Positions 5,897-27,095 of a stretch of 64,000 nt of DNA are shown here, piece by piece. The translations under genes and the position numbers were made by a program. Position 1 is the first letter of the stretch. Each line of letters begins with the position of its first letter. The stretch lies in the NCBI GenBank assembly GCA_034660175.1, contig JAYEIQ010000004.1:4152-68151 (forward strand), given 5' to 3'. A model generated the notes under the pieces. It was not told where the DNA came from. It ran no database searches and worked only from the letters and a program-made list of their open reading frames with translations. The DNA is from Patescibacteria group bacterium. Its GTDB lineage: Bacteria > Patescibacteriota > Minisyncoccia > Moranbacterales > DUUL01.

Positions 5897-5922
5897 CATG
5901 CTGTAGAATTGAAACGAAAACT

Positions 5923-6105: not shown

Positions 6106-6142
6106 AATATTAATTAATTTGGAGAGATAACAATAAACTTCA

Positions 6143-7961: not shown

Positions 7962-7979
7962 ATTTAGGTAAAATCTTTT

Positions 7980-11910: not shown

Positions 11911-11913
11911 ACC

Positions 11914-12810
11914 ATGAGTAATAATTTTATTAGAAGAACTTGTTGTCCTGTTTGTGGAGGAAGAAAGAGAAGGGCTATTTATTTAAAGTCTTTCTCAGAT
12001 GACGATATTTGGGATTATTTGAATGAATTCTATGAGTCGAAAATCTCCAAGGACATTATAAAAGATGATTTTTACAGCATTGTAAAGTGTAAGAATTGTA
12101 GTTTGTTGTACCAGGAGTATATACTCAGTGATAAAAACATGTATTTGCTGTATGAAAATTGGATTTCCGCAGAAAGTAGTCTCCAGAAGAAAATGGTCTC
12201 TGATATTAAATTGTTTGAACAGTATGTTCTTGAGCTTAGGAGAATTTATTTGTTTCTCAAAAAGATGCCACATGAGATTAATGTTTTGGAGTATGGAATG
12301 GGGTGGGGATTCTGGTCAAGATTGGCCAAAGCATTAAATTTTAAAGTAACTGGAGTTGAGCTTTCCGAATCCAGGGTTGAATTTGCTAGGAGGAATGGAG
12401 TTAAAGTGATTGATGATATAAAAAAAGAATTGGATTGTGTTTATGATTATGTTTATTCGAATCAGGTTTTTGAGCATCTAACAGAACCAAAGAAAGAATT
12501 GATTGAATTGGCTAGAGTTTTGAAGCCAGGAGGCATTATAGATATCAAGGTTCCTAATTGTCAAAATTTTGAGAAAAAATTTGGTAAAATTAATTGGAGA
12601 TTAGGATCAAAACCAGTTCATCCACTAGAGCACATAAACTGTTTCAGTCGTCAATCTTTGAAGATATTAGCTAATCAAGCCAAGCTAAGTCTTGTTAGGC
12701 GTCCGTATTCTTTCGCGTGCTTCGGGATAAATTCATGTATAAAGGGTCATATCGAGTATATTAACGATGCATTTTTTTCAACAAACGTTTATATGAGGAA
12801 GAATAAGTAG
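11914..12810 (+). CDS. SAM-dependent methyltransferase with N-terminal Cys4 zinc-ribbon
   Basis: CCPVCGG ... CKNC zinc-ribbon; MTase motifs VLEYGMGWGFWSRLA, VFEHLTEPKKELIELARVLKPGGII. Confidence 0.65.
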   Translation: MSNNFIRRTCCPVCGGRKRRAIYLKSFSDDDIWDYLNEFYESKISKDIIKDDFYSIVKCKNCSLLYQEYILSDKNMYLLYENWISAESSLQKKMVSDIKLFEQYVLELRRIYLFLKKMPHEINVLEYGMGWGFWSRLAKALNFKVTGVELSESRVEFARRNGVKVIDDIKKELDCVYDYVYSNQVFEHLTEPKKELIELARVLKPGGIIDIKVPNCQNFEKKFGKINWRLGSKPVHPLEHINCFSRQSLKILANQAKLSLVRRPYSFACFGINSCIKGHIEYINDAFFSTNVYMRKNK

Positions 12811-12831
12811 TAAGAGTATAAAGAAAGTGTC

Positions 12832-14145
12832 ATGAAGAAAACAAAGAAGTGGATTAAAAACAGATTGGGAACCAAAAACAGGGAAAGATTTTTTTTTCTT
12901 TTCAGGCTAATCAAATATCTCAGGAAACAGACAAGGAGAATTTTCAGAGATCTTGGATCTGATGGTAGGTCAGAATTATTGCTTCCTAGTGAAGAATATT
13001 TCATTGAAGACAAGAATGTCTTTTTCGGTTATTATGATAAAAGTCCTTTTAGTGATAATGGAGAAGTTATTCTGGTACAAGTTGCTAAAGGTCAAAACAA
13101 ACATCCTCAAGTGGGTGATGAATTGATTGTTGGCTTTTTTTGCAGGCAGGCAGGCTCTTCTGGAAGAGGAATTGTTGAGTTAGGCAGGACTACCACATGG
13201 TGCTGGCAACAAGGTTGCAGATTGCAGTGGTTTCCTGGGGATGGGAGCAAAAAAATTATCTACAACAAATTGATAAATAAACGGTTTTCCTCGGTGGTTC
13301 AAGACACAGAAAGCAAAAGAGTGGTTAAGTCGCTTAGTTTTCCTGTGTATGATGTTGATCCAAGCGGGTCTTGTGCCTTAACATTGAGTTTTTCCAGACT
13401 ATATCGGTTAAGGCCAGGGTATGGCTATGCTGGGATTATTGATGAGACAATAGATGAAAAGATACCGTCTAGTGATGGAATCTGGCTTGGAAATATCAAG
13501 AAAAACGAAAAGAGTCTTTTATTAAGTTTAGAAAAAATTTCACAGATGGATTGGAATGAGAAGATGGTTGGGGCACAGCACTATGTAAATTTTATTTCTT
13601 ACAACAAGGATGGTAGTAAGTTTGCTTTTTTGCACGTTTGGGAAGGGGGGGAGGGGAGATCTGTGAGGTTAATGATTTTTGATTTTGCAAGAGGTGAGCT
13701 ATCTGTTGTTGGACAAGGTCATGAGATGGTTTCTCATTACTCTTGGATTGATGATAGTTCAATAATTTTTACATCATTAGCGAAAAAAGGATATGGAATA
13801 TACTACACATACAATACAATCTCAAAAGAAACTATAGTTGTAGGGGGGAACGAACTGACTGGAGACGGGCATCCGAGTGCTTGTGGTGATTCCTCTCTTT
13901 TCATTACAGACACGTCTGCTGATGAATATGGTGAGCGAAAATTGATTCTATTCGATGGACTTAAGGGCAAAAAGAGAGAACTTTTTAGGTTAGTCGATCC
14001 GATTGGATTTTGGGGTGAGGTGAGGTGTGACTTCCATCCAAGGTGGGATAGTTCTGGGCGCTATGTTTGTATTGATTGTCCTGTAAGTGGGAAAAGGAGA
14101 ATGTCGGTTTTTGATCTCAGTGTTGTTCTGAGGGATTTTTCTTGA
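12832..14145 (+). CDS. hypothetical protein (possibly beta-propeller-like), part of glycan island
   Basis: 437-aa ORF, no confident family; repeated hydrophobic/Gly-Asp turns; contains in-frame G7 tract at 13645-13651. Confidence 0.4.
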   Translation: MKKTKKWIKNRLGTKNRERFFFLFRLIKYLRKQTRRIFRDLGSDGRSELLLPSEEYFIEDKNVFFGYYDKSPFSDNGEVILVQVAKGQNKHPQVGDELIVGFFCRQAGSSGRGIVELGRTTTWCWQQGCRLQWFPGDGSKKIIYNKLINKRFSSVVQDTESKRVVKSLSFPVYDVDPSGSCALTLSFSRLYRLRPGYGYAGIIDETIDEKIPSSDGIWLGNIKKNEKSLLLSLEKISQMDWNEKMVGAQHYVNFISYNKDGSKFAFLHVWEGGEGRSVRLMIFDFARGELSVVGQGHEMVSHYSWIDDSSIIFTSLAKKGYGIYYTYNTISKETIVVGGNELTGDGHPSACGDSSLFITDTSADEYGERKLILFDGLKGKKRELFRLVDPIGFWGEVRCDFHPRWDSSGRYVCIDCPVSGKRRMSVFDLSVVLRDFS

Positions 14146-15331
14146 GGGCAAAGTAATTATAAAAAGTTTGGAATACAAAAAAGATAATCGAAGAGATTAC
14201 CCCACCCAATACTCCAACAAGAGGTATAAGCAAAAGATATGAAACAAATACAAGTAACATAGCAAGAATTCTGCTGTGGTTAATCTCCTTGTTCATATTA
14301 TTCTTGATTAAGAGAGAAAGGGTTATGTTATACGAAAAATAGAATGGTATAACAATGAGATATATTTGTGACAAAAAAACAACGTCTTCATATCCTGGTC
14401 CATAAAGTAGTGTGACTGGGTATTTTATTATTGGAATTATCATTAAAGGAATAATGAACGACAGGGCAAATGGTTTGTAAAAATATTTAAGAGTTATTGA
14501 CAGATCTTTGTAGATTTTTGGCAGTACTGACTCGATGGTCCCCTTGATAAACTTGAAAAAGATATCGCCCAGTTTCATTGTTAGACCATAAATTGCTATT
14601 TGCTCTGGAGCTAGGATTAATCCCATAATGAAAATATCTGCTTTACCAAAAACTATCCCTGATAAATTTGAGATTGTTAGAGCATAACTTTGCTTCTTCC
14701 AATGAATGTCTATTTTTCCATCTAATTTAAATGAGCGAGAAGATGTTATAAAAAATAATATATTGAAGAAGGATTGCACTGCTACATAACAAAAGACAAT
14801 CACCACCAAATTGTTACTGAAATTGCTAATTGCCAAAATCATACTCAACAGCAGAATTGGGTACAAAATGAGATTGTAGATTGTGAGTGTTTTGAAATCT
14901 CCTCGGCCTTTCAGAGCTGGAGTCCATGTTTTGAGGCTTGTTAGGAAAGGAAACAAGAAAGAGCATGCAATTAATGAGGTACCAATTGAACTTTTTTCTT
15001 GGAGCAGGAAGATGAAACCTATAAATAGAAGAAAGGGAACTCCCCAAAGGGAGTGTTTGAAAGAAAAGTAAGTTCCTTTTCTATAAACTCCATCATATCC
15101 TTGGGCAATTGACTTGACAATTATCGTATTAACTCCAGTGATGGAGATTAGGGAAAGCAGATTAAAGATTGACAAAACAAAGAGATATTCTCCGTATCTT
15201 TCTGCTCCGGCGATTCTTATAAAAAATACAGAAAGAGACACCCCGAAGAGTGCTCCTATCAAATAATTCGTGTTCGATAGAACAGCATTGGCGCCGTGTT
15301 TTTTGTTTTTTTCTATAAATTTTTTTATCAT
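14117..15331 (-). CDS. Wzx-like oligosaccharide flippase / polysaccharide biosynthesis protein (MOP superfamily)
   Basis: 404 aa, about 12 predicted hydrophobic helices throughout, MATE/Wzx-like architecture; located between GT cluster and GT-C transferase. Confidence 0.6.
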   Translation of the reverse strand: MIKKFIEKNKKHGANAVLSNTNYLIGALFGVSLSVFFIRIAGAERYGEYLFVLSIFNLLSLISITGVNTIIVKSIAQGYDGVYRKGTYFSFKHSLWGVPFLLFIGFIFLLQEKSSIGTSLIACSFLFPFLTSLKTWTPALKGRGDFKTLTIYNLILYPILLLSMILAISNFSNNLVVIVFCYVAVQSFFNILFFITSSRSFKLDGKIDIHWKKQSYALTISNLSGIVFGKADIFIMGLILAPEQIAIYGLTMKLGDIFFKFIKGTIESVLPKIYKDLSITLKYFYKPFALSFIIPLMIIPIIKYPVTLLYGPGYEDVVFLSQIYLIVIPFYFSYNITLSLLIKNNMNKEINHSRILAMLLVFVSYLLLIPLVGVLGGVISSIIFFVFQTFYNYFALKKNPSEQH

Positions 15332-15357
15332 CGCACTCTCTTATATTATGAGATTTG

Positions 15358-17391
15358 CTATTTACAATAAAAAAGATTTGGCCAAAAAAGATTTTTATTT
15401 TCATACCAGCCGACATAATTATACTTTTTTACGCCTAGATCTTTTGAAATATTTTCACAATTTTCCATTAAATAATCCAAGAGGTCCCTATCTAGCAAGT
15501 GGGCATAAGTTGTTACTAAGTAGCTCTCTCCTTGCTTCTTGCTCATCAACTCAAAGAAGTCAATGCTTTTTTTTGTCTTTTCATTTGTCAATTCCTTGCT
15601 TTTTCTCCGCAGTAAAAAATAAGTTACTCTTGGATTTGTTTGTAAATAATATTCTCCACTGTCTGTTATCACGAAGTCTCCATCTTTTTGGTTTTTGTTA
15701 ATGTGTTGATATATTTTTGAATATTCTGGAGCAATGGCTCTGCGGTGTAGCTCTGTTTTTCCGTAGTCATCGCTCCAAACGCTGGGCGATTCTTTGGTTA
15801 GACCTTGGATTTCTTTTATTGGTAGAAGTGGGTAAAACACGAATAATAGTGCCAGAAAGATGCTTATGAAAGCAGGAATAGCCTTGTTTCTTTTTTTTGA
15901 AAGAGCTTTTGTTATATTCTCGACAATAGAATAGAGTCCTAACATTGCAATACTATAGATAAAAGGTATCAAAAAGTAGCAATATCTAAAATCTTCGTAT
16001 CTATTTAATAAATATATGACAAAAAATAAGGGCACAAAAGTGAATAAAAGCAAATGGAAAGCTCCGAAATCTTTTTTAAGAAAACTCCTCCACAACAAGA
16101 AAAAGGTTCCAACAGAAAACGATAGATACATCAAAAAGGGGAATTTTGTGTATTTTGAAAAGAGGTATTGATAATATGTTTTTTCTGGATTTTTTATGTT
16201 CTCGTAGGATAAATGATTTAAAAACTGTTTACCAGTAATGGAAATATTTGTAATTCCTGTAATTTCTAAGATAATTACGCTAGCAAAAAACAGGAACCCA
16301 AGAGTGAGTAGCGCATTTCTTTTTTTGATTGTATTTTTAAGAATATTTTTATTGATTATCATTGAGAATATCCACGAGACTGGAATGAGAAGAAGCAAGA
16401 TTTTACTAGTTTGGTTTGCTTGGATTGCTCCTGTTACAGAAACTAGCAATAGAGATAAGCACATTGCTAGTGCTTTTTTGTTCCTATCATTCTTAATTAG
16501 AACTAAAAATAAATAGGAGAAATAAAAGGACAAAAGATAGAAAGCGAGAAAAGTAGTGTATGGACGGAGAAATCTGGCTAAAAAAACTGCAGGTGGACTA
16601 AACGCAAAACCAATTGATGTCAAAAGTGCTGGAATATTTCCAATTATTTTGCGAAGAGAAAAGAAGATAACTGGGATGAGTAATACTCCAAATATTGCTG
16701 GTATCAATCTTAGAGTAAAATTGTTTTGTCCGAATGTCTTTGTAGTTAGATAAGTCGAGCTGTTTAAGAAGAGACCCCTTCTGTATCTTTTTTCAGATTC
16801 CCCAGAAAGAAAATTCCATTTTTTAAATCCCTCGCCATGCTTGAGGCTTTCTATTACTTGTACATGCCACTTTTCATCGTGAAATATATCATTCTTATTA
16901 ATGTCGTGAAAGATAAGAAGTCCTTCCCACAAGATGATCGTAAAGAGCAGAAGGTAAATTAATCGGGCAATTTTTCTATTTGATGTCATTACGCGCTTTC
17001 TTTTCTGGTTTCTGTGTGTTAGTAGAACGATTGTGATTAAACTAAAAACAGAGAGTGTAAGAGAATATATTAAAAACAGATTATTTTCTGAGGAGGAGTG
17101 GTGAAGTATTAGAGCTATTATAATAAACAGGATAGAGGACAGAGCAAGTGTTATTGAGTCTACTTTTTCAAGGTTATTTCTCAATTTATATCTGTTCTGA
17201 ATCCCAAAGATGGTTAAGAATGCAACGAAGGCTATTAAGAATATGTTTATATTGATGTAGTAAGAGATTGAAAAGGGAAGTCTCCATTCAAACCAGAAAA
17301 AGACCAAGTATACAGTGATTGAAACAAGACACAAGTCTTTGATGATTACCCTTGATAATTCATTTTTTTCTTTATCTGTTTTTTTTTGCAT
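15358..17391 (-). CDS. GT-C fold membrane glycosyltransferase (PMT / ArnT-like, GT39/GT83-type)
   Basis: 677 aa, many TM helices; first extracytoplasmic loop contains HDEKWH (DE motif typical of PMT/ArnT); central region LIPAIFGVLLIPVIFFSLRKI...AFSPPAVFLARFLRPYTT PMT_2-like; about 130-aa N-terminal extension with 3-4 extra helices. Confidence 0.5.
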   Translation of the reverse strand: MQKKTDKEKNELSRVIIKDLCLVSITVYLVFFWFEWRLPFSISYYININIFLIAFVAFLTIFGIQNRYKLRNNLEKVDSITLALSSILFIIIALILHHSSSENNLFLIYSLTLSVFSLITIVLLTHRNQKRKRVMTSNRKIARLIYLLLFTIILWEGLLIFHDINKNDIFHDEKWHVQVIESLKHGEGFKKWNFLSGESEKRYRRGLFLNSSTYLTTKTFGQNNFTLRLIPAIFGVLLIPVIFFSLRKIIGNIPALLTSIGFAFSPPAVFLARFLRPYTTFLAFYLLSFYFSYLFLVLIKNDRNKKALAMCLSLLLVSVTGAIQANQTSKILLLLIPVSWIFSMIINKNILKNTIKKRNALLTLGFLFFASVIILEITGITNISITGKQFLNHLSYENIKNPEKTYYQYLFSKYTKFPFLMYLSFSVGTFFLLWRSFLKKDFGAFHLLLFTFVPLFFVIYLLNRYEDFRYCYFLIPFIYSIAMLGLYSIVENITKALSKKRNKAIPAFISIFLALLFVFYPLLPIKEIQGLTKESPSVWSDDYGKTELHRRAIAPEYSKIYQHINKNQKDGDFVITDSGEYYLQTNPRVTYFLLRRKSKELTNEKTKKSIDFFELMSKKQGESYLVTTYAHLLDRDLLDYLMENCENISKDLGVKKYNYVGWYENKNLFWPNLFYCK

Positions 17392-17461
17392 TTATGGTTT
17401 AATCATTGATATTTCTGTTATTTGTTGTGTGTTTCGAAAGAGCGTCTGATAAAGCCCAAGT

Positions 17462-18427
17462 CTACCATATCATTTTTTTCAACTTTCTCAATGCTTGTTT
17501 GGTTGTTGGTTTTTTAGTTAAGTTGATGGTAATTGAGCTAATAGAATTTTCAGGGATTCCATACACGAAGATGGAATAAGAGTTTCCTGCTAAATCTAAC
17601 TTGTCTCTCTCGAGTTTTCCATTACACACAACTTGTTTATCTTCAGGAAATAGGAGACAAGGAATGTTTTTTGTGTCTTTTTTTTTGATACTATTAGTTT
17701 CTATGAACGCAAAATTTTTCCAGACTCTTGAAATTAAATTTTCAGAAAACAAAGGGTACAAATTATTTGACCCAGTAATGAAATAATCATTTCCAGCTTT
17801 AACAATTAATCCACTTGGATATATTTTGTCTTTCTTTCTAAAATTCAAATTATCTCCTATTTCTAGGGTATTTAAAATTTCTTTGTTGACCGATATGATA
17901 TTCTTTTTATCAAATCCCATTTCTTTGAAAGTGGTAATTGACTGGAATGGTCTTAATTTTCCTTTCTCAATAAAATAAAGTACTCTATTACTTTTAAGAA
18001 TGCTCCCATTTGGATATTTTGAGTGATTGTTTTCGAAGAGTCTGTTTTTTACTTGTTGAGTTTCAGTTAGCATGTTTCTTCTGTGAATTAGCATCGGCTC
18101 AAGTGTTTTTGTTGCGTGAACCTCAATTTCTGAAAAATCAAAATCTTCTTTTGGCTCAATGAGGATTTCAAATTCTACTAAATCCTCGTTTGATATCACG
18201 GAAACCACATTATGTGTGAGAAAAGAGTCTTTATTAAAAACATAATACTCTTTTATCGGAAGGGTAGTGCTTGTTAATACCACAGAAGCCACTAAAAATA
18301 GACCACCAGAATAAATAAAACGTCTTAGAAGAGTGGATTTTTTTCTTTCATTCATTGACTGTAGCATCAGTCGTATTTTACTTTTTGTAATTCTAGATGT
18401 ATTTGACATATTTAGAGGATACAACAA
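17462..18427 (-). CDS. hypothetical membrane-anchored protein
   Basis: 321 aa, single N-terminal TM (LFLVASVVLTSTTL), no recognisable domain. Confidence 0.4.
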   Translation of the reverse strand: MLYPLNMSNTSRITKSKIRLMLQSMNERKKSTLLRRFIYSGGLFLVASVVLTSTTLPIKEYYVFNKDSFLTHNVVSVISNEDLVEFEILIEPKEDFDFSEIEVHATKTLEPMLIHRRNMLTETQQVKNRLFENNHSKYPNGSILKSNRVLYFIEKGKLRPFQSITTFKEMGFDKKNIISVNKEILNTLEIGDNLNFRKKDKIYPSGLIVKAGNDYFITGSNNLYPLFSENLISRVWKNFAFIETNSIKKKDTKNIPCLLFPEDKQVVCNGKLERDKLDLAGNSYSIFVYGIPENSISSITINLTKKPTTKQALRKLKKMIW

Positions 18428-18531
18428 TTTTATCTCTTAGTCCACGAGATGGGGTATTACCCAAAAAGATAAACGCACTATTTCACTTAGTGAAATAGTG
18501 CGTTATTTATGTAATTGTTTGTTGATGCAAG

Positions 18532-19716
18532 TTAAGGAATCACTGCATCATCGATGTGAAAATATCTGTCAGCGTTGGTCTTAATGACGAACAGCGAACG
18601 TTCATTCCTGCGGTGTAACACAAAGATGTCATAGGAACTTCCAAGATTGATACTGTACTGGAATCTGTCGTGCCAGTCTCCATCAAAACCTTGACTAGCG
18701 TACTTTATGTATAGCTTCTTTTTGTCTGTTCTGAAGACACCAATGTCCATTTGATCGTCGGAGTCCCAATAGCCCAGAACGGGAACAGCAAGTGGTCCAC
18801 CTGAATTATATGGTTCAGAATCCCAGTCACCCAATCCGTTTTGAGCATCATCGATGTGAAAATATCTGTCAGCGTTGGTCTTAATGACGAACAGCGAACG
18901 TTCATTCCTGCGGTGTAACACAAAGATGTCATAGGAACTTCCAAGATTGATACTGTACTGGAAGATGTCGTGCCAGTCTCCATCAAAACCTTGACTAGCG
19001 TACTTTATGTATAGCTTCTTTTTGTCTGTTCTGAAGACACCAATGTCCATTTGATCGTCGGAGTCCCAATAGCCCAGAACGGGAACAGCAAGTGGTCCAC
19101 CTGAATTATATGGTTCAGAATCCCAGTCATCAAGTTGAGGCGTAGTAGATGCTTGTGCTGGTTCACTGTCGCTTCCATCGACTATTCCATCACCGTCGGA
19201 GTCATCGTCCAAGATGTTGATGTATCCATCACCGTCAATGTCGGTGCTCCAAGTTGAGCCATGCGTGATCCAGAAATCGATTTCGTCATCATCGTTTATC
19301 CCATCATTATCAGTGTCATCAAGGTATTTGTCTGTTCCGTAAAGATGAATCTCTTCATAGTCGAGAAAAGAATCAGCGTCATTATTCCATGTTGGAACGT
19401 GAAGTTCATTTGAGAACACACTATCACCGTCAAAATTGAAAGCAACCACAATGAAATAATAGTCCTGTTCCGGATCGAGAACTGCTGGTAGAGTGAAACT
19501 TGTGTCCAAGTCGCATGTGTCGATCTCGGAGTCATAAATTTCGTCTGCTCCACCACCGCTCTCATTGTCATATAAAAGCTTATAACCGATTGGAGCATCT
19601 CCAGTAGTTGGAGCATCCCAGGAAAAGGTTGGGGTTAATGTTGCCATGGTTGGTTGTGCCAACAGCAAGAAAATAACTGTCAGGCACAGTAGCCAAATTT
19701 GCTGAATTCGCTTCAT
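18532..19716 (-). CDS. secreted protein with fibronectin-III-like N-domain, thrombospondin-type-3 Ca-binding repeats and two FG-GAP/VCBS-like C-terminal repeats
   Basis: signal peptide MKRIQQIWLLCLTVIFLLLAQPTMA; DTDNDGINDDDE, DIDGDGYINILDDDSDGDGIVDGSD (DxDxDG); duplicated 100-aa unit LGDWDSEPYNSGGPLAVPVLGYWDSDDQMDIGVFRTDKKKLYIKY... Confidence 0.6.
   Translation of the reverse strand: MKRIQQIWLLCLTVIFLLLAQPTMATLTPTFSWDAPTTGDAPIGYKLLYDNESGGGADEIYDSEIDTCDLDTSFTLPAVLDPEQDYYFIVVAFNFDGDSVFSNELHVPTWNNDADSFLDYEEIHLYGTDKYLDDTDNDGINDDDEIDFWITHGSTWSTDIDGDGYINILDDDSDGDGIVDGSDSEPAQASTTPQLDDWDSEPYNSGGPLAVPVLGYWDSDDQMDIGVFRTDKKKLYIKYASQGFDGDWHDIFQYSINLGSSYDIFVLHRRNERSLFVIKTNADRYFHIDDAQNGLGDWDSEPYNSGGPLAVPVLGYWDSDDQMDIGVFRTDKKKLYIKYASQGFDGDWHDRFQYSINLGSSYDIFVLHRRNERSLFVIKTNADRYFHIDDAVIP
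18545..19137. repeat. 300-bp-period tandem duplication (2 copies, 2 mismatches) inside secreted-protein gene
   Basis: 18545-18837 equals 18845-19137 except 18664-18665 (tc) vs 18964-18965 (ga); read directly from sequence. Confidence 0.9.
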
Positions 19717-20058
19717 ACTCGATTACCTCCTTTCGTGGATTTTTTTTGTTGATTTCCTTTTACTTTCATCTTAATTACCTCTCTTTTTCCTAAAAAGTTT
19801 GTGGGTCTCGAACAAAAAAACATTTCATTCCTGAAACACGGTAATACCACAGTTGGCAAATTTTCAAGGAACAACAAAAACATAGAACTTTTGTTCCAAA
19901 GAACTGTACTTTCTTTCCATCCTCCCTTGCTTCATATTATAGCTCTTTCTTTCAAATTTACAACATTTTGGAATAGATGGAGATATCTTCTTGGATCAGT
20001 TTCAATGAAAAGTGGAAGCGCGCCTAAGGATTTCCTTAAACGCGCTTCTTTGGTTTTT

Positions 20059-20973
20059 TTATTGATCATATTTGTCTTTTGATGCCACGAAGAAAAACTC
20101 AGCTGAATCTGCAAAAGCTCCAGTTGGTGAAACTGCTCTGATAACGAAATAATAGCCAATTTTTTCTTTCAGTTTTTTCACTAGGGCTGTTGTTTTCAGA
20201 GTCTCAACTTCCCACAGGTTGTAGTTATAGGGTTTGTTTTTTTCTCTGGAATAGATTCTATACCTCGTAGGTCTTGAAGTGTGGCCCGAAGTGTGGCCCG
20301 GATCCCATTTAAGAGTGGCTTGGCATTTGCCGTTCCGAAAGTCGCTTGCCACTTTTGTCTTTTTAAAGAGATGCACGAAGGCGTGTTGTCCACTTGAAAG
20401 TAAGGCTTGCGAAGTTTGGAATAGGGAAGTGATTCTTCTAATCTCATGGTCTTTTCCGTCTGGAATGCCATCGTTATCAGAATCCTTGTCTAAAATGTTT
20501 ATCTTTCCGTCTTCGTCAAAATCAATATTCCATTTTTTTCCCCAAGTTGCATATTCCTCACCGTCGGGGATTCCGTCATCATCTGAATCCTTTTTGTTTG
20601 GTAGAGTGTGTGTGACTTGTTTCTCAAACTCATCGGTGAGGCCGTCGTTATCAGAATCCAGATCGTCACTGGTCCAGAGAATGATAATTTCGCTTGAATA
20701 CACATGATCTCCGTCGATTTTTGCAGAGATGAAATTTGGAGAGTTTACTTGCAGTGGCAATTTTCCGATGTTAATTGCCAACGTTTTCTTTTTACAATGA
20801 AACTTTTCGCTATACTTGTGACTTTCAATGCCAATATAGATTGTACAATCTGATTCTGAGACTGGTCTACTGCCTATGTCTTCCCAATCCAATTTCATTT
20901 CTTGGGAATTTGCTGCAGAAGCAATTATCAGTAAGACAATTGCAAAACTGATGACTTTTGAGATCATTTCCAT
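20059..20973 (-). CDS. secreted thrombospondin-type-3 repeat Ca-binding protein with FN3-like domain (paralog-like of 18532..19716)
   Basis: signal peptide MEMISKVISFAIVLLIIASAANS; DLDSDNDGLTDEFE, DSDDDGIPDGEEY, DFDEDGKINILDKDSDNDGIPDGKD; 12-bp in-frame tandem duplication GAAGTGTGGCCC x2 at 20276-20299 (GHTSGHTS). Confidence 0.55.
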   Translation of the reverse strand: MEMISKVISFAIVLLIIASAANSQEMKLDWEDIGSRPVSESDCTIYIGIESHKYSEKFHCKKKTLAINIGKLPLQVNSPNFISAKIDGDHVYSSEIIILWTSDDLDSDNDGLTDEFEKQVTHTLPNKKDSDDDGIPDGEEYATWGKKWNIDFDEDGKINILDKDSDNDGIPDGKDHEIRRITSLFQTSQALLSSGQHAFVHLFKKTKVASDFRNGKCQATLKWDPGHTSGHTSRPTRYRIYSREKNKPYNYNLWEVETLKTTALVKKLKEKIGYYFVIRAVSPTGAFADSAEFFFVASKDKYDQ

Positions 20974-21288
20974 GGCTTGCTCCTTTCGTGCTTGTCAATG
21001 TTGTTGTTTGAATTTGGTCCTGAATTTTTAAAAAACTACGAAAATCGATATTTTCGTTTGAGTTTAAGTATATAACAAATTTTGGTTTTTGGCAAGAGAT
21101 ATTCATACTTCTTTTGTAAAAGAGGGGTATGGAGGTTTTTAGCAATTAAGTGAAATTTTTTTATAGTCTCCATTATCTTGATGAAGGGAATCAAGAGTAC
21201 TAACTATACAAAAAGAAAAGAGCCTCTCACATGGTTGTGTGAAAGGCTCTTGGGTTATGTTCTGTTTGACATGGTTTGCCAAACAAAA

Positions 21289-23181
21289 TCAGTTAACGGA
21301 TTTTTGTACATGTTCAAATTGGTTGAATCCAATAATACTGGTTGTGCGTTTTTCTCCATGGACTTGCACGACGGTTGCATATTCAGGCAAATATCCTCTT
21401 TTTTGAGGTTTGTCCTGATGCATGTCGTTATAACCGAACCCCGTTGGCTCCGTATATGCCAGCACGATTCTTTTCCCGTTTATCGGGAAAAGCACATGAT
21501 TGGGGAATGGGTCTGTTACAAGTTCATGCCAAATCGGGAGCAGTGGCACTACATGTCCGATACTTCCATAATCTAAAGATACTAAGGCAAAGACGTTGTT
21601 GATATCCCGCAAAGTTGGATGCTCGGAAGCGACAAAATAGGCTGCTCCTGAGATTGCATGTCCTTCACAGTCTTCTCCTCTGTTAAACAGTGCCACCAAA
21701 GGAGACATCGGAATCTCAATTGGTCCATTGTATCCAGGCTTACTTTTATCACCTTTGTGGTCAGAGACATAGGGGAGGTTTTCGACGATGAACTTCATTT
21801 GTCTTTCCTCGGCTTCCTGCGGAGTTTGAGCGTCGCCAATGATCTTGTCGGCGATTTGGGTCAGGCGGGCAGTTTTGGTGACATATGGTGAAAAATCATA
21901 TCCGATGTGTGAATTGTGACTGTTGCCACGCGAAGCATAGATTTTCTTGTTTTGCCCTTGTCTGTTTTTACGAACCTGTTGGATCTCATCAAGGATGTCT
22001 TGCATGGTAATGTCAACAGCACCGTCAGCTAACAAGATCGGATCGTCATCTTCCATTCTGAAAAGGTAGGAAAAAGGGATAATAATAGATTGATCCGGTT
22101 GGTGGCTACCCCAAAAACAAAGCTCGTGGTTAGAATTTGTTACTGAAACAGGTACACCAACAACAATGTTCTTTTTACCGAATTCCCATTTGGGATCCAA
22201 TTGGTTTTTGGCCAAGTGAACAATGACATGTTCAACATCTAATTTCTTTTTGTAGATGAAGCGGGTTTGCAGACCTTTGCCGATAATCTCAATGGCAGAT
22301 GGTTCGATGTAGATGCCATATGAGATAGCATAATTTCTTGCAATAACCCATTGTGTTTTTTCGATATCCCATTGTCCGGTTTTGTGGTCGCAAAGGTTAC
22401 TGAAACTATAGAACGCGACCGGCAGTGATTCTTCCGGTTCCACTGAAGGCGCTCCAAGTTCCAAATCAATTCGGTTTTTTCTCCACATTCCATGGGTGTT
22501 GGGACGCAGGCAGAGCCAGGTGTCTTCGGGTTTGACAAGGCGTGTCTGTCCATCGGCAAACTTACGTTTAAAACCTTTTTCCAGGCCTTGCATTCTGTCG
22601 AGCTTCAGAAACGGCTCCATCATGTGACTTTTGACGTTGTGCACATTTCCTGTCACGACCTTGAACTGTCCATAGGGAATGATTTGAAATGCCATTGCCA
22701 AGTTTTCAGAGCCTACGACTTCGGTCATCTTTTTGCCGATCTTCAAGAGGCGAGACTGGGAGACCCAGTCGGTTGCTGGATAGTTCAAGTAGCTCATCGC
22801 AACGTTATACCCGGCGAATCGCAAAGCATCCAAGTCGGTTCCCAATTTTTCACCGTTGCCTTTTTTCACAATGGAAATTGTATCACCAAAAGAAAATATC
22901 CCTTTGACAAAATTTGCGAAGTTTTCCCGCTTTGTAATACGGAAATTCAACGGTTTGTCTGGTGCAGTTGCATAAGCGAGACCGCACACTCCTTTGTACG
23001 AATCGAAATAGCTCCCTGTGTGTTGCAATAAATGATTTCCGGTCATGATTCCAACCAACAGAAATGCCGCTGATACGATTGTCACAAGGCGGAGTTTTTC
23101 CCACAAATTGACCTTCTGAATTCCTTTCGATTCTGGAGAGAATTTAACCTTCTTCCAGGGCTTCTTTTCTAAGTAAGACAT
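21289..23181 (-). CDS. hypothetical membrane-anchored protein (630 aa), compositionally atypical
   Basis: long ORF with one N-terminal TM (LRLVTIVSAAFLLVGIMTG); visibly GC-richer codon usage than flanks; no family recognised. Confidence 0.45.
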   Translation of the reverse strand: MSYLEKKPWKKVKFSPESKGIQKVNLWEKLRLVTIVSAAFLLVGIMTGNHLLQHTGSYFDSYKGVCGLAYATAPDKPLNFRITKRENFANFVKGIFSFGDTISIVKKGNGEKLGTDLDALRFAGYNVAMSYLNYPATDWVSQSRLLKIGKKMTEVVGSENLAMAFQIIPYGQFKVVTGNVHNVKSHMMEPFLKLDRMQGLEKGFKRKFADGQTRLVKPEDTWLCLRPNTHGMWRKNRIDLELGAPSVEPEESLPVAFYSFSNLCDHKTGQWDIEKTQWVIARNYAISYGIYIEPSAIEIIGKGLQTRFIYKKKLDVEHVIVHLAKNQLDPKWEFGKKNIVVGVPVSVTNSNHELCFWGSHQPDQSIIIPFSYLFRMEDDDPILLADGAVDITMQDILDEIQQVRKNRQGQNKKIYASRGNSHNSHIGYDFSPYVTKTARLTQIADKIIGDAQTPQEAEERQMKFIVENLPYVSDHKGDKSKPGYNGPIEIPMSPLVALFNRGEDCEGHAISGAAYFVASEHPTLRDINNVFALVSLDYGSIGHVVPLLPIWHELVTDPFPNHVLFPINGKRIVLAYTEPTGFGYNDMHQDKPQKRGYLPEYATVVQVHGEKRTTSIIGFNQFEHVQKSVN

Positions 23182-23204
23182 GTCAGTTCTCCTTTTTTCT
23201 GGGG

Positions 23205-23600
23205 TTATTTTTTTGTAAAACTGGTTAGAACAGTGCTATCCCAAGCAACTCTTAATTTTTTGCCGTCAGAATGCTTTTCAATTTTGGCTGATAGCGCTGT
23301 GTTCTTGATTCGATCAACGTATCCATAAGGAATGTCTTCTTCGATCATGGCAATTACTTGAACTTGCTGAACTCCTTCGTTGAATGACGATTGGATGATA
23401 TTTGAGAGTTCTCTGGTTTCAACGTAACGACCATTACATTTGGTTCCGTAGTCTCCTTCTGTTTTTTCGATGAAAATGTGAATTTTTGGAACGGGCCTAT
23501 CGCTAGCATTGGATTCCTTGGTCTCGACTTGAGCAGCGATCAGAAAAGCAATACAAAGCAACATGAATGTATCTAGGAATACCCAAATTGTTTTTTTCAT
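23205..23600 (-). CDS. ExbD/TolR-family protein
   Basis: likely start at MKKTIWVFLDTFMLLCIAFLIA (single N-terminal TM followed by about 100-aa periplasmic domain), typical ExbD/TolR size; ORF track's longer 168-aa version overlaps upstream gene. Confidence 0.5.
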   Translation of the reverse strand: MKKTIWVFLDTFMLLCIAFLIAAQVETKESNASDRPVPKIHIFIEKTEGDYGTKCNGRYVETRELSNIIQSSFNEGVQQVQVIAMIEEDIPYGYVDRIKNTALSAKIEKHSDGKKLRVAWDSTVLTSFTKK

Positions 23601-24388
23601 TGATTTCTCCTGTTTTCTGCAATTCGGAAGAGCACCAAAACGGTCTTCAATTGGATATTCTTCTCCGAGATAATTGCTTGGGTCAACGTTGAAATGACAA
23701 CTCTTGCCCAAATGGCAAAAACTGTTGTTCCAATGGCATTGCCAACGCCGGCAAACATCGAAACTCCTCCGGCTTTGCTGAGAGTTGCCTCTGCAAGTCC
23801 AAGAGCGGTTCCAAGTAATCCGAGAAGAGGTAGCAGATCTTCCAAGTTCCCAAGTATTTTTGTGCCTTGAAATGTTCTTTCCTCCAGATATCCTTCCAGG
23901 CTAGATTTCACCTCATCAGACCAGTCTGAATGTTCAGAAGTTGCAAACTTTCTAAAGTGCTTCACAAAAAGTGATTTTGCGAAATACTTTTTGGCTGGGA
24001 TCTCTACTCTTGAGAAATCAATGCCATCTTGGTCGACCACCATTTTCTCAACCAACTTTGCTTCTCTTGAAGTATTGATTGAGAGTAGTATTGATCCAAT
24101 AATACCAATGATCGAAAGCAGTACAATGGGGAACATTAACCAGTTTTTTAAGGCGATGAACGCCAAGTGTTGAACAATTGCCATTTTTCCCAAAAGAAAA
24201 GATGAGCAGAACAATACCATAAGTATTGTCCAATATTTCATGGTAAAAATTGCTGATTGAGAAACTTCTTTCCTCATCCTTTTTTTGGTTGTTCTAGGTT
24301 CGTCTTTCACTTTAATTGTCAATTCAGCTTCTTTTGCTCTCATGTTCTCCACCTCTCTTTTGTTGACGTGATATATTTTTTCAACCAA
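23597..24388 (-). CDS. MotA/TolQ/ExbB-family proton-channel protein
   Basis: C-terminal LLPLLGLLGTALGLAEATLSKAGGVSMFAGVGNAIGTTVFAIWARVV matches ExbB/TolQ/MotA conserved TM2-TM3; true start may be internal. Confidence 0.6.
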   Translation of the reverse strand: MVEKIYHVNKREVENMRAKEAELTIKVKDEPRTTKKRMRKEVSQSAIFTMKYWTILMVLFCSSFLLGKMAIVQHLAFIALKNWLMFPIVLLSIIGIIGSILLSINTSREAKLVEKMVVDQDGIDFSRVEIPAKKYFAKSLFVKHFRKFATSEHSDWSDEVKSSLEGYLEERTFQGTKILGNLEDLLPLLGLLGTALGLAEATLSKAGGVSMFAGVGNAIGTTVFAIWARVVISTLTQAIISEKNIQLKTVLVLFRIAENRRNQ

Positions 24389-26045: not shown

Positions 26046-26645
26046 TCAGATCATTCTACCGATCAACATGATGATGAAAATTCCAAAAGCATTGAAGATG
26101 AAAGAAACCGTTGCAAAGATTGGATAAGACATATTCTTTGATGCATGGACAAGTGCTGCAGAGAATTCATCAGGGAGGGGAGTTGCAGAAATGATTCCTG
26201 CGAAAACAGGCAGAACATAGCTGCGAACAAACATAGGAGTGAAGCGATCAAGTATTCCGATTACCCATTTGTAGAGTGGATGAGAGGAAATATCATAAAC
26301 CTCTTTTTCAAATGAAATTTTAAGAGTTTTGAAAATGAAATAGTTTCCAAACAACGAGCCAACTGTGGCAATCACTCCTGATACGAAGAAATTTTGTTTT
26401 TCGGAAATAAGCAAAAGAGTGGCAACTGCAGGTCCTGTAGTGAATCCGTGAGAAAAAAACATTCCAGCAAGAAAAGTTCCGACATAGCCAAGTCTGTCAA
26501 GTACTGCATGAAAGTGAAAATTGTTCTCGTCTTTGAAGATCAAATAGCCCAAGAAGATCGAAACAGTTAGAAGCAACAGTTTTGGATATTTGATTCGAAA
26601 AGCAATTCTTTTAAGGATGAGAAATGGATTCAATGAAGCAGACAT
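26046..26645 (-). CDS. hypothetical polytopic membrane protein
   Basis: 199 aa with 5-6 hydrophobic helices; no confident family. Confidence 0.4.
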   Translation of the reverse strand: MSASLNPFLILKRIAFRIKYPKLLLLTVSIFLGYLIFKDENNFHFHAVLDRLGYVGTFLAGMFFSHGFTTGPAVATLLLISEKQNFFVSGVIATVGSLFGNYFIFKTLKISFEKEVYDISSHPLYKWVIGILDRFTPMFVRSYVLPVFAGIISATPLPDEFSAALVHASKNMSYPIFATVSFIFNAFGIFIIMLIGRMI

Positions 26646-26797
26646 GGACTTATTTTTTATTTTTAGTTGAGGTAATTTTATGCGAATATCTGGAGCATGT
26701 TCCAGATAAAATGAGTGAACCGACCGTGGGAATCAAGTTCCGATATCACAAAGCTTTATAGGTAGGCCCACAACCTATGTTTATCCCGTTACACTTG

Positions 26798-26871
26798 AGC
26801 CGAAGATGAGATTCGAACTCACGACCTACGCATTACGAGTGCGTTGCTCTAGCCAACTGAGCTACTTCGGC
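26798..26871 (-). tRNA. tRNA-Thr (anticodon CGT)
   Basis: reverse complement GCCGAAGTAGCTCAGTTGGCTAGAGCAACGCACTCGTAATGCGTAGGTCGTGAGTTCGAATCTCATCTTCGGCT: 7-bp acceptor, D-arm, anticodon loop CT-CGT-AA, GTTCGAATC T-loop. Confidence 0.8.
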
Positions 26872-27023
26872 GCTCAAGTGTAATGGGACATTGCTCCTCG
26901 CCCGACTGAACGACGTCAATCGTTCGGGCGGGTACCAACTGAGTTATATTGGCTAAATGTAGAATTTGAGCTGGTAACGGAAATTGTCTATCTATTATAG
27001 ATAAAAATCCTTTACTTATCTTG

Positions 27024-27095
27024 AGCGGGTGAGCGGAATCGAACCGCCGTGTCAAGCTTGGGAAGCTTACATAATAACCACTATATGACACCCGC
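27024..27095 (-). tRNA. tRNA-Gly (anticodon CCC)
   Basis: reverse complement GCGGGTGTCATATAGTGGTTATTATGTAAGCTTCCCAAGCTTGACACGGCGGTTCGATTCCGCTCACCCGCT: acceptor GCGGGTG/CACCCGC, anticodon stem TAAGC/GCTTG with loop TT-CCC-AA, GGTTCGATTCC T-arm. Confidence 0.8.

What the first reader, a model, noticed from the sequence alone, without database searches (positions are those of the whole stretch)
18532..23181. Compositionally distinct block of secreted proteins: two thrombospondin-type-3/FN3-like Ca-binding paralogs plus a 630-aa unknown
By eye these minus-strand genes are markedly GC-richer than their AT-rich surroundings (not computed). Both smaller proteins carry signal peptides and DxDxDGxxD calcium-binding repeats typical of thrombospondin type 3 / calcium-binding adhesins. 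The second carries a 12-bp in-frame tandem duplication (GHTS)2. The 630-aa gene has a single N-terminal TM and no recognisable family. Together they suggest a horizontally acquired set of cell-surface/host-interaction proteins.
Basis: partly seen in the sequence, partly recalled or inferred. Interest (0 to 1): 0.5.

Follow-up and report, generated by a model that had tools for sequence, protein, structure and literature searches.

The report
Proton-motor-linked surface protease module in CPR bacteria
The three flagged genes are not a foreign island: they are the far end of a rare gene module, conserved in ultra-small Patescibacteria, that pairs an ExbB/ExbD-type proton-driven motor with a membrane-anchored LapG-like cysteine protease and secreted calcium-binding surface proteins.

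Summary
The ORFs, signal peptides, DxDxDG motifs, the (GHTS)2 duplication and the N-terminal TM of the 630-aa protein are all real. GC is only modestly raised (0.417 against 0.377 for the window). The excess comes from the 630-aa and 394-aa genes and looks larger because the neighbouring glycan genes are AT-rich.

Horizontal acquisition is not supported. The 630-aa family is tiny (about 12 strong hits among 1.84 billion representatives) and, by source labels, confined to Patescibacteria. In 12 of 12 distinct loci it sits directly behind a MotA/ExbB-like gene and an ExbD-like gene. In 9 of 12 a 304-aa-type TSP3/FN3 gene lies next to it, usually within glycan-synthesis loci. The 630-aa homolog is 4-9 GC points richer than its surroundings in 10 of 10 loci and tracks host GC, so the bias belongs to the gene.

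Best reading (inferred, about 0.4): a proton-motive-force-coupled, probably Ca-dependent, extracytoplasmic cysteine protease or transamidase that processes the co-encoded Ca-binding surface proteins or the glycan coat. This is a new variant of known kinds. The 394-aa gene is a lineage-specific orphan with a near-perfect 285-bp tandem duplication.

The parts
23597..24343 (-). MotA/ExbB/TolQ-like A subunit (248 aa from ATG 24343; the ORF listing extends it to TTG 24388). About 4 TM segments; invariant G175-x2-G178-T179-x2-G182 and A203-x2-T206-T207 in the last two TMs.
   Evidence: Pfam MotA_ExbB 24.1 bits (cutoff 22.9). The family profile hits MotA/PomA/TolQ/ExbB chains in the PDB (E 0.002-0.4). 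Invariant columns; hydrophobic segments. Gene call in L001. Present in 12/12 loci.
23205..23600 (-). ExbD/TolR-like B subunit (131 aa). Single N-terminal TM carrying the only invariant residue besides Met1: Asp10 (codon 23571-23573). Overlaps the upstream gene by 4 nt.
   Evidence: The family profile's best PDB hits are ExbD (7ajq_F E 0.016; 6tyi_Y E 0.084), aligned on the FxD...TM motif. Pfam ExbD is sub-threshold at 15.7 bits. Invariant D10 across 8 divergent members. Overlap.
21289..23181 (-). 630-aa single-pass membrane protein. It has a conserved cytoplasmic N-terminus (M1-x-Y3-L4), a TM helix at about residues 28-52 (23026-23100), a confidently modelled ~370-aa ectodomain with no detectable relatives, and a C-terminal LapG/BTLCP-like domain.
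   Evidence: Starts 23 nt downstream of the ExbD-like gene.
21322..21900 (-). Transglutaminase-fold (LapG/BTLCP-like) cysteine peptidase domain, residues ~428-620. Nucleophile Cys505 (21667-21669) sits in an invariant D504-C505-[E/D]506 motif. Also His543 (21553-21555), Asn/Asp561 (21499-21501), and invariant D474, N500, E578, T580.
21218..21251 (-). Terminator-like hairpin (14-bp stem plus T tract) after the 630-aa gene. A promoter-like site for the next gene lies at 21095-21067.
   Evidence: consensus scan only.
20059..20973 (-). 304-aa secreted protein: signal peptide (~1-23), conserved N-terminal beta-rich domain, TSP3-type Ca-binding repeats (residues ~104-176; 20446-20664), linker, FN3-like domain (~219-285). 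It is the recurrent accessory gene of the module.
   Evidence: Pfam TSP3_bac 33.6 bits; fn3 22.4 bits. Motifs. Full-length homologs at 33-48% identity occur only in related CPR loci.
20276..20300 (-). 12-bp in-frame tandem duplication giving (GHTS)2, in a loop that is gapped or variable in homologs, at the start of the FN3-like domain.
20015..20048 (-). Terminator-like hairpin (15-bp stem) after the 304-aa gene. A promoter-like site lies at 19963-19936.
18532..19716 (-). 394-aa secreted orphan: signal peptide, FN3-like domain (30-106), TSP3-like Ca-binding segment (~110-185), then two ~100-aa repeats (196-295, 296-394).
   Evidence: Pfam fn3 22.6 bits. BLASTP to the 304-aa protein: 39% over 109 aa. 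Only itself plus one weak TSP3 hit among 5.8 billion proteins. An FN3 gene with 45% identity to its N-terminus follows the 304-aa homolog in the closest locus, L010.
18545..19129 (-). Near-perfect tandem duplication (2 x 285 bp at period 300; 283/285 identical) encoding the two C-terminal repeats.
   Evidence: Not independently confirmed: the only other contig (L001) ends before it.
18472..18504 (-). Terminator-like palindromic hairpin (15-bp stem) after the 394-aa gene.

Best explanation
The flagged ORFs are the distal genes of a conserved Patescibacteria envelope module. The core operon encodes three proteins.

1. A MotA/ExbB-like protein and an ExbD-like protein, which together should form a proton-conducting 5:2-type stator.
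2. The 630-aa protein. Its N-terminal TM helix anchors it beside that motor, much as TonB and TolA sit beside ExbBD and TolQR. Its ectodomain ends in a LapG/BTLCP-like Cys-His-Asn/Asp transglutaminase-fold domain with a LapG-like D-C-E motif at the nucleophile.

The neighbouring, separately transcribed genes encode secreted Ca2+-binding TSP3/FN3 surface proteins.

I propose that the motor uses the proton-motive force to switch or position the ectoenzyme (mechanotransmission). The enzyme would then cleave, or transamidate, surface proteins such as the co-encoded TSP3/FN3 proteins. This would control what is displayed on, or released from, the cell's acidic and probably sulfated glycan coat.

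Shown here: component identities, conserved catalytic residues, strict gene linkage, taxonomic restriction, and the absence of an HGT signature. Inferred: physical coupling of the 630-aa protein to the motor, Ca dependence, protease versus transamidase chemistry, and substrate identity.
For: Gene linkage:
- The order A subunit / B subunit / 630-aa homolog is found in 12 of 12 distinct loci, including members only 21-28% identical.
- Gaps are -4 nt and 23 nt in the window.
- More remote Transglut_core relatives lack the motor genes, so the linkage is specific to this family.

Motor:
- Pfam MotA_ExbB is above threshold.
- PDB profile hits are to MotA/PomA/TolQ/ExbB and to ExbD.
- The TM Asp of the B subunit is invariant, as are Thr-containing motifs in the A subunit.

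Enzyme:
- AF2 model with pLDDT 83.5 and pTM 0.83.
- LapG chains are the only natural PDB sequences hit by the domain profile.
- C505, H543, D504 and E578 are invariant, and N/D561 is conserved. The spacings (38 and 18) resemble HvyA's C192/H226/D241. C-H-N triads are known in BTLCPs (PMC4241560).

Substrate and context:
- A TSP3/FN3 gene is adjacent in 9 of 12 loci. A Calx-beta protein and FN3/PKD proteins lie near the two most divergent members.
- Glycan-synthesis genes flank most loci. In the window these include PAPS synthesis, a sulfotransferase and UDP-glucose dehydrogenase.

Precedents:
- LapG releases a Ca-binding adhesin by N-terminal cleavage (PMC3032545).
- The BTLCP HvyA is embedded in a capsule locus and controls capsulation.
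Against: - No experiment or complex prediction links the 630-aa protein physically to the motor; co-operonic order is the only evidence.
- The TM helix lacks a TonB/TolA-like SHLS motif.
- All Pfam hits of the catalytic domain are sub-threshold, and PDB profile E-values are marginal (0.013-0.24).
- I could not inspect model coordinates, so the triad geometry is inferred from sequence spacing and secondary structure.
- The TSP3/FN3 genes have their own promoter- and terminator-like signals and are missing from the visible flanks of 3 loci, so they need not be the substrates.
- No LapA-like di-alanine site or retention module is evident.
- About 370 ectodomain residues remain unexplained.
Confidence: 0.4

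Rival explanations
1. HvyA-like glycan regulator. The transglutaminase-fold enzyme acts on the polysaccharide synthesis or export machinery, or on glycan-linked proteins, to switch the surface glycan coat on or off according to energy state. The TSP3/FN3 proteins would be merely co-located coat components.
For: The module lies inside or beside glycan loci in most genomes. UDP-glucose dehydrogenase is adjacent in several. The Caulobacter BTLCP HvyA sits in the capsule locus and blocks capsulation through its catalytic triad.
Against: The two most divergent loci (L016, L017) and L009 show no glycan genes in their flanks. HvyA's direct target is itself unknown. HvyA is a small soluble periplasmic protein with no motor.
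Confidence: 0.2
2. Anchoring transamidase. The enzyme works in the transglutaminase direction, covalently cross-linking the secreted TSP3/FN3 proteins to each other, to an S-layer or to the wall (a sortase-like role). The motor would supply directionality or gating.
Against: The closest structural and sequence matches are to the protease LapG, not to cross-linking transglutaminases. No conserved Gln/Lys acceptor motif was identified.
Confidence: 0.15
3. Cell-wall hydrolase under mechanotransmission control. This would be a proton-motive-force-driven analogue of FtsEX-PcsB/CwlO, or a monoderm Tol-like system, cutting peptidoglycan stem peptides during growth or division.
Against: The 630-aa family has no peptidoglycan-binding domain. 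The module co-localises with glycan and surface-protein genes rather than dcw genes in the other loci. The family is far too rare (about 12 representatives) for a core wall function.
Confidence: 0.12
4. One reading: a recently horizontally acquired island of adhesin or host-interaction genes, compositionally foreign to the genome.
For: The 630-aa and 394-aa genes have the highest GC and GC3 in the window. The 394-aa gene has no homologs. Two tRNA genes lie 2.4 kb beyond the module.
Against: The gene order is found in related CPR genomes. The GC excess of the 630-aa gene recurs in 10 of 10 loci and scales with host GC. Third-position skew is native-like. The 304-aa gene is compositionally ordinary. 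No mobility genes were found among the neighbouring ORFs scanned.
Confidence: 0.05
5. Zorya-like anti-phage defence, with a MotAB-type sensor and an effector.
For: Zorya also couples a MotA/MotB-family complex to extra proteins (general knowledge; Zorya is mentioned in PMC12505986). Capsule and BTLCP biology is linked to phage susceptibility in Caulobacter.
Against: No PADLOC model hits any of the five proteins. The A subunit has no long ZorA-type tail. The effector is extracytoplasmic, and there are no nuclease or helicase genes.
Confidence: 0.03

Closest known systems
LapG / BTLCP family (Pfam Peptidase_C93, DUF920); the Lap adhesin-release system of Pseudomonas and Legionella
   Same: - LapG chains are the only natural PDB profile hits.
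- Cys...His...Asp/Asn order and spacing agree.
- An acidic D-C-E motif surrounds the nucleophile.
- Extracytoplasmic location.
- Neighbouring genes encode Ca-binding repeat surface proteins.
- Activity is presumably controlled from the membrane (inside-out).
   Different: - 630 aa with an N-terminal TM anchor and a ~370-aa extra ectodomain, against a ~200-270-aa soluble periplasmic enzyme.
- Below the Pfam threshold for PF06035.
- No LapD/c-di-GMP receptor; an ExbB/ExbD-like motor takes its place.
- The candidate substrates are small (300-400 aa) TSP3/FN3 proteins, not giant RTX adhesins with a T1SS retention module.
- The host is a CPR bacterium, generally regarded as lacking an outer membrane.
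HvyA, the BTLCP of the Caulobacter crescentus capsule locus
   Same: A transglutaminase-like cysteine peptidase embedded in a surface-polysaccharide locus. Function depends on the triad, and D-to-N at the third position is tolerated.
   Different: HvyA is small and soluble, is regulated by the cell cycle, and has no associated motor. It is found in alphaproteobacterial diderms.
Ton (ExbB-ExbD-TonB) and Tol (TolQ-TolR-TolA) systems; 'generic ion transporter' 5:2 motors
   Same: - Operon of A subunit, B subunit and a third protein with a single N-terminal TM and a large extracytoplasmic part.
- Invariant TM Asp in the B subunit.
- Conserved Thr motifs in the A subunit.
   Different: - The third protein has no SHLS motif, Pro-rich spacer or TonB/TolA C-terminal domain. 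It carries an enzyme domain instead.
- The A subunit appears to have 4 TMs with a short cytoplasmic loop (MotA-like topology) and scores slightly better against MotA/PomA than against ExbB/TolQ.
- There are no outer-membrane partners.
FtsEX-PcsB/CwlO/RipC mechanotransmission systems
   Same: The concept is shared: a membrane energy-transducing complex controls an extracellular papain-like/CHAP-type cysteine hydrolase in a monoderm envelope.
   Different: The energy source there is ATP (an ABC transporter), not the proton-motive force. The proteins are unrelated, and the substrate there is peptidoglycan.
Bacterial TSP3-repeat proteins (Pfam PF18884), e.g. OmpA-family TSP3 proteins and the Myxococcus CglD/MtsC adhesins
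   Same: DxDxDGxxD calcium-binding repeats in secreted or envelope proteins. The 304-aa protein passes the Pfam threshold.
   Different: - There are only about 3-4 repeats, flanked by a family-specific N-terminal domain and an FN3-like domain.
- There is no OmpA, MYXO-CTERM or lipoprotein anchor.
- NCBIfam hits to CglD and MtsC are far below cutoff (19-21 bits against 350-400) and reflect the repeats only.

Membership tests
BTLCP / LapG (PF06035 Peptidase_C93) | Conserved Cys-His-Asp(Asn) catalytic triad in that order, with about 35 and about 15-18 residue spacing | tested here: met
   C505 and H543 are invariant and N/D561 is conserved in 15 of 15 divergent members, with spacings of 38 and 18. 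For comparison, HvyA has C192/H226/D241, and C/H/N variants are known.
BTLCP / LapG (PF06035 Peptidase_C93) | Transglutaminase-like fold closest to LapG | tested here: met
   [not shown]
BTLCP / LapG (PF06035 Peptidase_C93) | Calcium site formed by acidic residues next to the nucleophile | tested here: inconclusive
   D504-C505-[E/D]506 and D474 are invariant and align with LapG's ...YVED...GDCEDYA. LapG's Ca ions lie near the active site. Metal binding itself cannot be tested here.
BTLCP / LapG (PF06035 Peptidase_C93) | Scores above the Pfam gathering threshold | tested here: not met
   Only 1 of 15 domain sequences hits PF06035, at E 0.039. The window protein does not hit it at all.
BTLCP / LapG (PF06035 Peptidase_C93) | Small soluble periplasmic protein partnered with a LapD-type c-di-GMP receptor and a LapA-type adhesin with a di-Ala site | tested here: not met
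   The protein is 630 aa and TM-anchored. No LapD-like gene is present in any locus; the partner is an ExbB/ExbD-like pair instead. No AA/TAAG-type site is conserved in the 304-aa family alignment.
Transglut_core (PF01841) | Scores above the gathering threshold (23 bits) | tested here: not met
   The window domain scores 12 bits (E 0.27). 7 of 15 members are sub-threshold, with best E 0.0038. The remote relatives P0023-P0027 do pass.
MotA/ExbB/TolQ A subunit (PF01618) | Pfam hit above threshold, plus conserved Gly/Thr motifs in the last two TM helices | tested here: met
   24.1 bits against a cutoff of 22.9. G175, G178, T179, G182, A203, T206 and T207 are invariant. PDB profile hits are to MotA/PomA/TolQ/ExbB.
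ExbD/TolR B subunit (PF02472) | Single N-terminal TM with an essential conserved Asp; gene immediately downstream of the A subunit | tested here: met
   D10 is the only invariant residue besides M1 across 8 members. The genes overlap by 4 nt. ExbD chains are the top PDB profile hits (E 0.016 and 0.084).
ExbD/TolR B subunit (PF02472) | Scores above the Pfam gathering threshold | tested here: not met
   15.7 bits against 25.4.
TonB / TolA (third component of Ton/Tol) | N-terminal TM anchor encoded next to the motor genes | tested here: met
   TM at about residues 28-52. The gene starts 1-25 nt after, or overlaps, the B-subunit gene in all loci.
TonB / TolA (third component of Ton/Tol) | SHLS-type TM motif, Pro-rich or long helical spacer, TonB_C/TolA_C domain | tested here: not met
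   The TM has no conserved Ser/His. There are no Pfam TonB or TolA hits. The model shows globular domains rather than a spacer.
Bacterial TSP3 repeat (PF18884) | DxDxDGxxD repeats scoring above threshold | tested here: met
   The 304-aa protein scores 33.6 bits against 25 and has 3 canonical motifs. The 394-aa protein has the motifs and 39% identity to that segment but no Pfam TSP3 hit.
Fibronectin type III (PF00041) | Scores above the gathering threshold (25 bits) | tested here: inconclusive
   22.6 bits (394-aa protein) and 22.4 bits (304-aa protein), E about 1e-4, both just below the cutoff. Several homologs carry PF00041 in precomputed annotation.
Recently acquired genomic island | Foreign composition not shared by orthologs; absent from relatives; mobility genes at the borders | tested here: not met
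   The GC excess is family-wide and scales with the host. The module is syntenic in relatives. No mobility genes were found among the neighbouring ORFs scanned.
Zorya and other known defence systems | Match to PADLOC models | tested here: not met
   0 hits for all five proteins at E <= 0.1.

The most novel reading that the evidence does not exclude
This would be a previously undescribed class of envelope machine. In bacteria generally regarded as lacking an outer membrane, an ExbB/ExbD-type 5:2 proton motor is coupled directly to a membrane-anchored LapG-like ectoenzyme rather than to TonB, TolA or a flagellar rotor. Such a machine would let an energy-poor episymbiont tie the display or release of Ca-binding adhesins and its sulfated glycan coat to its own proton-motive force. 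It would be a new output type for the 5:2 motor family, and a new mode of regulation for BTLCP proteases.
Probability: 0.3. Interest if true: 0.75.

Novelty: new variant of a known kind. Interest (0 to 1): 0.55.

Why it matters
5:2 ion-driven motors are known to power flagella, TonB-dependent uptake, Tol-Pal, gliding/T9SS and Zorya. Many 'generic ion transporter' homologs still have no known output (PMC12505986). This module gives one such orphan motor a concrete and testable output: a LapG-like cysteine peptidase domain with clear catalytic residues.

It occurs in Patescibacteria, whose surface biology governs attachment to host cells and is almost entirely unknown. It also extends the BTLCP/LapG theme of regulated shedding or remodelling of Ca-binding surface proteins, and the BTLCP link to capsule loci, to a different envelope type and a different regulatory input.

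For the scan itself, the result is a caution. A gene that looks GC-rich beside AT-rich glycan genes need not be foreign.

Tried and rejected
- Direct Pfam, NCBIfam and PADLOC scans of the 630-aa protein gave nothing usable. So did phmmer and full-length profile searches against PDB sequences.
- The first AF2 run, with 9 sequences, was poor (pLDDT 51.3). I replaced it with a 20-sequence alignment.
- Foldseek against the PDB gave only weak hits (E >= 0.012), though these were to vasohibins, a TGase and CPR-C4. Foldseek against viral structures gave nothing significant. The afdb50 library was unavailable.
- NCBIfam hits of the TSP3 proteins to CglD and MtsC are repeat-only and far below cutoff, so I rejected them as family assignments.
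- The homolog search for the 394-aa protein returned only itself and one weak TSP3 hit. Its 100-aa repeat looks FG-GAP/VCBS-like by eye, but no HMM supports that.
- The recurrent small gene pair next to DUF2304 in related loci, and the 157-160-aa gene after the 304-aa homolog, have no Pfam hits.
- Literature searches for ExbB/ExbD in Patescibacteria, for motors linked to transglutaminase-like genes, and for CPR TSP3 adhesins found no description of this module.
- I discounted the 'Bdellovibrionales' label on two MAGs, because those contigs are gene-for-gene syntenic with a Moranbacteria contig.

Full report
**1. What is there**

The window (GC 37.7%) comes from a Patescibacteria MAG. The 630-aa protein is 100% identical to an NCBI entry named 'MAG: hypothetical protein U9O20_00500 [Patescibacteria group bacterium]'.

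Both smaller proteins start with a hydrophobic signal-like segment and carry canonical DxDxDGxxD motifs: three in the 304-aa protein and two in the 394-aa protein, plus degenerate copies.

Pfam TSP3_bac is above threshold in the 304-aa protein (33.6 bits). fn3 is just below threshold in both proteins. The (GHTS)2 12-bp duplication is real and unlikely by chance, with about 0.004 expected in the window. It lies in a loop that is gapped in homologs.

The two proteins share only the TSP3 segment (39% over 109 aa, E 2e-14), and their domains are in different orders.

The C-terminal half of the 394-aa gene is a tandem duplication of 285 bp at period 300, with 283/285 identity.

**2. Composition**

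| Region | GC |
|---|---|
| Block 18532-23181 | 0.417 |
| Whole window | 0.377 |
| Left flank | 0.355 |
| Right flank | 0.382 |

The left flank is an AT-rich glycan locus.

- The 630-aa and 394-aa genes rank first and second of 49 ORFs (GC z about 1.9; GC3 z 3.5 and 2.6).
- The 304-aa gene is ordinary (z 0.6).
- In 10 of 10 homologous loci the 630-aa homolog is 4-9 GC points richer than the rest of its locus, and its GC scales with the host: 0.32 in a 0.27 background up to 0.49 in a 0.44 background. The excess is therefore a property of the gene family, not a donor signature.
- Third-position GC skew of these genes (-0.18 to -0.34 in coding sense) matches that of other minus-strand genes in the window.

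**3. The block is part of a larger conserved module**

Immediately upstream on the same strand lie two more genes.
- A 248-aa MotA/ExbB-like gene at 23597-24343 (Pfam 24.1 bits, above cutoff).
- A 131-aa ExbD-like gene at 23205-23600. It overlaps the first by 4 nt and ends 23 nt before the 630-aa gene.

The 630-aa family is very small.
- 9 proteins among 5.8 billion.
- 12 strong hits and 7 weak hits among 1.84 billion cluster representatives.

I retrieved 12 distinct loci.
- All 12 have the order A subunit / B subunit / 630-aa homolog. This includes the most divergent members, at 21-28% identity: L016, where Pfam itself flags MotA_ExbB, and L017.
- Still more remote Transglut_core relatives lack the motor genes.
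- A 304-aa-type TSP3/FN3 gene lies adjacent in 9 of 12 loci, with full-length homologs at 33-48% identity.
- In the closest locus (L010) a second gene follows, whose N-terminus is 45% identical to the FN3 part of the 394-aa protein.
- L016 instead has a 1422-aa Calx-beta protein two genes away.
- Most loci sit in glycan-synthesis clusters (GT4/GT2, Wzx/Wzy/Wzt, UDP-glucose dehydrogenase, sulfotransferases). In the window this cluster includes PAPS synthesis and a sulfotransferase.

Source labels are Patescibacteria, Moraniibacteriota/Moranbacteria or plain 'bacterium'. Two MAGs are labelled 'uncultured Bdellovibrionales'. They are gene-for-gene syntenic with a Moranbacteria contig, so I regard that label as doubtful.

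The 394-aa protein has no homologs beyond a weak TSP3 hit.

Terminator-like hairpins follow each of the 630-aa, 304-aa and 394-aa genes, and promoter-like sites precede the two smaller genes. This suggests three transcription units, but these are consensus scans only.

**4. The motor**

- The A-subunit family profile hits MotA, PomA, TolQ and ExbB chains in the PDB, across the last two TM helices (E 0.002-0.4).
- Its invariant residues are G175, G178, T179, G182, A203, T206 and T207. These are the Gly/Thr motifs of the ion pathway in this superfamily (from established knowledge of ExbB and TolQ).
- The B-subunit profile's best PDB hits are ExbD (E 0.016 and 0.084), aligned on the F-x-D TM motif.
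- Across eight divergent B-subunit members, the only invariant residues are Met1 and the TM Asp (D10). That Asp is the hallmark proton-accepting residue of ExbD, TolR and MotB.
- The A subunit seems to have four hydrophobic segments with a short loop between TM2 and TM3, which is a MotA-like topology.

I therefore place the pair in the MotA/ExbB superfamily, among the 'generic ion transporters' of PMC12505986, without assigning a subfamily.

**5. The 630-aa protein**

With 20 family members as the alignment, AF2 gave pLDDT 83.5 and pTM 0.83. A 9-sequence run had failed.

Evidence on the C-terminal domain:
- Foldseek gives the same families weakly.
- A profile of the C-terminal domain (residues 428-630) hits, among natural PDB proteins, only the two LapG sequences (E 0.013 and 0.24). 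The alignment runs ...Y-x-x-D...ALLNRGEDCEGHAIA against LapG's ...YVED...ALWKGAGDCEDYAIA.
- Pfam hits of the isolated domains are all sub-threshold, but all lie in the same clan: Transglut_core 7/15, DUF553, Peptidase_C93 and CEP76 peptidase.
- The weak hits of the family profile are bona fide Transglut_core proteins.

Conserved residues:
- Across 15 divergent members, D474, N500, D504, C505, H543, P558, E578 and T580 are invariant. Position 506 is always E or D, and position 561 is always N or D.
- The spacings are Cys to His 38 and His to Asn/Asp 18. Secondary structure agrees: a helix starts at the Cys, the His sits on a beta-hairpin, and the N/D opens the next strand.
- This fits the BTLCP triad. 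HvyA has C192/H226/D241, D241N is functional, and C/H/N members are known (PMC4241560).

Remaining regions:
- The extreme N-terminus (M1-x-Y3-L4) is invariant and predicted to be cytoplasmic.

**6. Mechanism (inferred)**

The strict A/B/630 linkage mirrors exbB-exbD-tonB and tolQ-tolR-tolA. There, a single-pass protein docks on the stator and transmits proton-motive-force-derived force or conformational change to its extracytoplasmic part.

Here that part is an enzyme related to LapG. LapG is a Ca-dependent protease that sheds the Ca-binding adhesin LapA by N-terminal cleavage, under inside-out control from the membrane (PMC3032545; PMC4359373). It is also related to HvyA, a BTLCP embedded in a capsule locus that shuts off capsulation.

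The most economical reading is a proton-motive-force-gated ectoprotease or transamidase. It would act on the co-encoded Ca-binding TSP3/FN3 proteins and/or the glycan-coat machinery. I put this at about 0.4.

The alternatives differ mainly in substrate or chemistry:
- an HvyA-like glycan regulator (0.2);
- an anchoring transamidase (0.15);
- a peptidoglycan hydrolase under mechanotransmission control (0.12).

A Zorya-like defence role has no support from PADLOC. The HGT-island reading is largely refuted.

**7. Comparison and novelty**

By membership tests the catalytic domain is not a member of PF06035 or PF01841, because the HMM thresholds are not met. It does share fold, triad and nucleophile motif with LapG/BTLCPs, so it is a new family within that clan.

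The motor subunits belong to the MotA/ExbB and ExbD/TolR superfamilies. The third protein works like TonB or TolA in gene organisation and topology, but fails their defining motifs.

I found no description of this combination in the searchable literature. I therefore rate it a new variant of known kinds rather than categorically new.

**8. Caveats**

- All functional statements are inferences from sequence, predicted structure and gene context.
- I could not read model coordinates, so the triad geometry is unverified.
- PDB profile E-values are marginal.
- Promoter and terminator calls are consensus matches only.
- The statement that CPR bacteria lack an outer membrane rests on general knowledge and was not tested here.
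- The 285-bp duplication rests on a single MAG assembly.

Noticed in passing
window 1419-17391: The left flank looks like a locus for a sulfated, methylated surface glycan. It holds a PfkB + inositol-monophosphatase/CysQ-like fusion (1419-2936), a trifunctional-looking PUA/ATP-sulfurylase/APS-kinase (2933-4618), a sulfotransferase (7980-8864), four GT4 glycosyltransferases, three methyltransferases, a Wzx-like flippase (14117-15331) and a PMT_2/Agl23-like protein (15358-17391). Sulfotransferases and APS kinase recur beside the module in L002 and L006. Sulfated glycans would be notable in CPR bacteria and could bind the Ca-loaded TSP3 proteins.
   Followed up: partly
window 18545-19129: A 2 x 285-bp tandem duplication (283/285 identical; the two mismatches are adjacent, at 18664-18665) forms the C-terminal half of the 394-aa gene. 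This is either a very recent duplication or an assembly artefact. The only other contig with this gene (L001, Logan SRR26901924) ends before the repeat.
   Followed up: partly
window 17462-18427: A 321-aa ORF (TTG start as listed) with one TM segment and the lowest GC in the window (0.306). It has no family hits and no counterpart in any related locus. It sits directly downstream of the 394-aa gene on the same strand.
   Followed up: no
L002 7241-8688; L004 17175-18675; L020 14001-15376: A recurrent trio lies near the module in several related loci: a 204-216-aa protein, a 118-121-aa protein, and a DUF2304 protein. The sizes resemble a second A/B-like pair. However, tblastn with the window's subunits and Pfam both find nothing.
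   Followed up: partly
L014 / L015 (= L004 / L008): Two MAGs deposited as 'uncultured Bdellovibrionales bacterium' are gene-for-gene syntenic over about 19 kb with a contig whose protein NCBI names Candidatus Moranbacteria (L020/L021). The taxonomic label is probably wrong. These loci also carry sigma-54-activator genes, which would be unusual for CPR.
   Followed up: partly
window 1-64000: GC skew is strongly and monotonically positive on the + strand across the whole window (cumulative skew rises throughout), and most genes are on the + strand. The minus-strand gene blocks (14117-24388, 36400-41627, 53255-54487) show skew near zero overall, but third-position skew is still G-rich on the + strand. 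This is consistent with one replichore and long residence of these genes.
   Followed up: partly
window 26797-27095: tRNA-Thr(CGT) and tRNA-Gly(CCC) sit between a 199-aa multi-TM protein (26046-26645, no family) and a release-factor gene. No integrase is nearby, so they do not mark an island border.
   Followed up: partly
window 12832-14145: A 437-aa ORF inside the glycan locus with no Pfam hit at E <= 1e-5. By position it could be a Wzy-type polymerase or another membrane protein. A 440-aa gene without Pfam hits occupies a similar place in L006.
   Followed up: no
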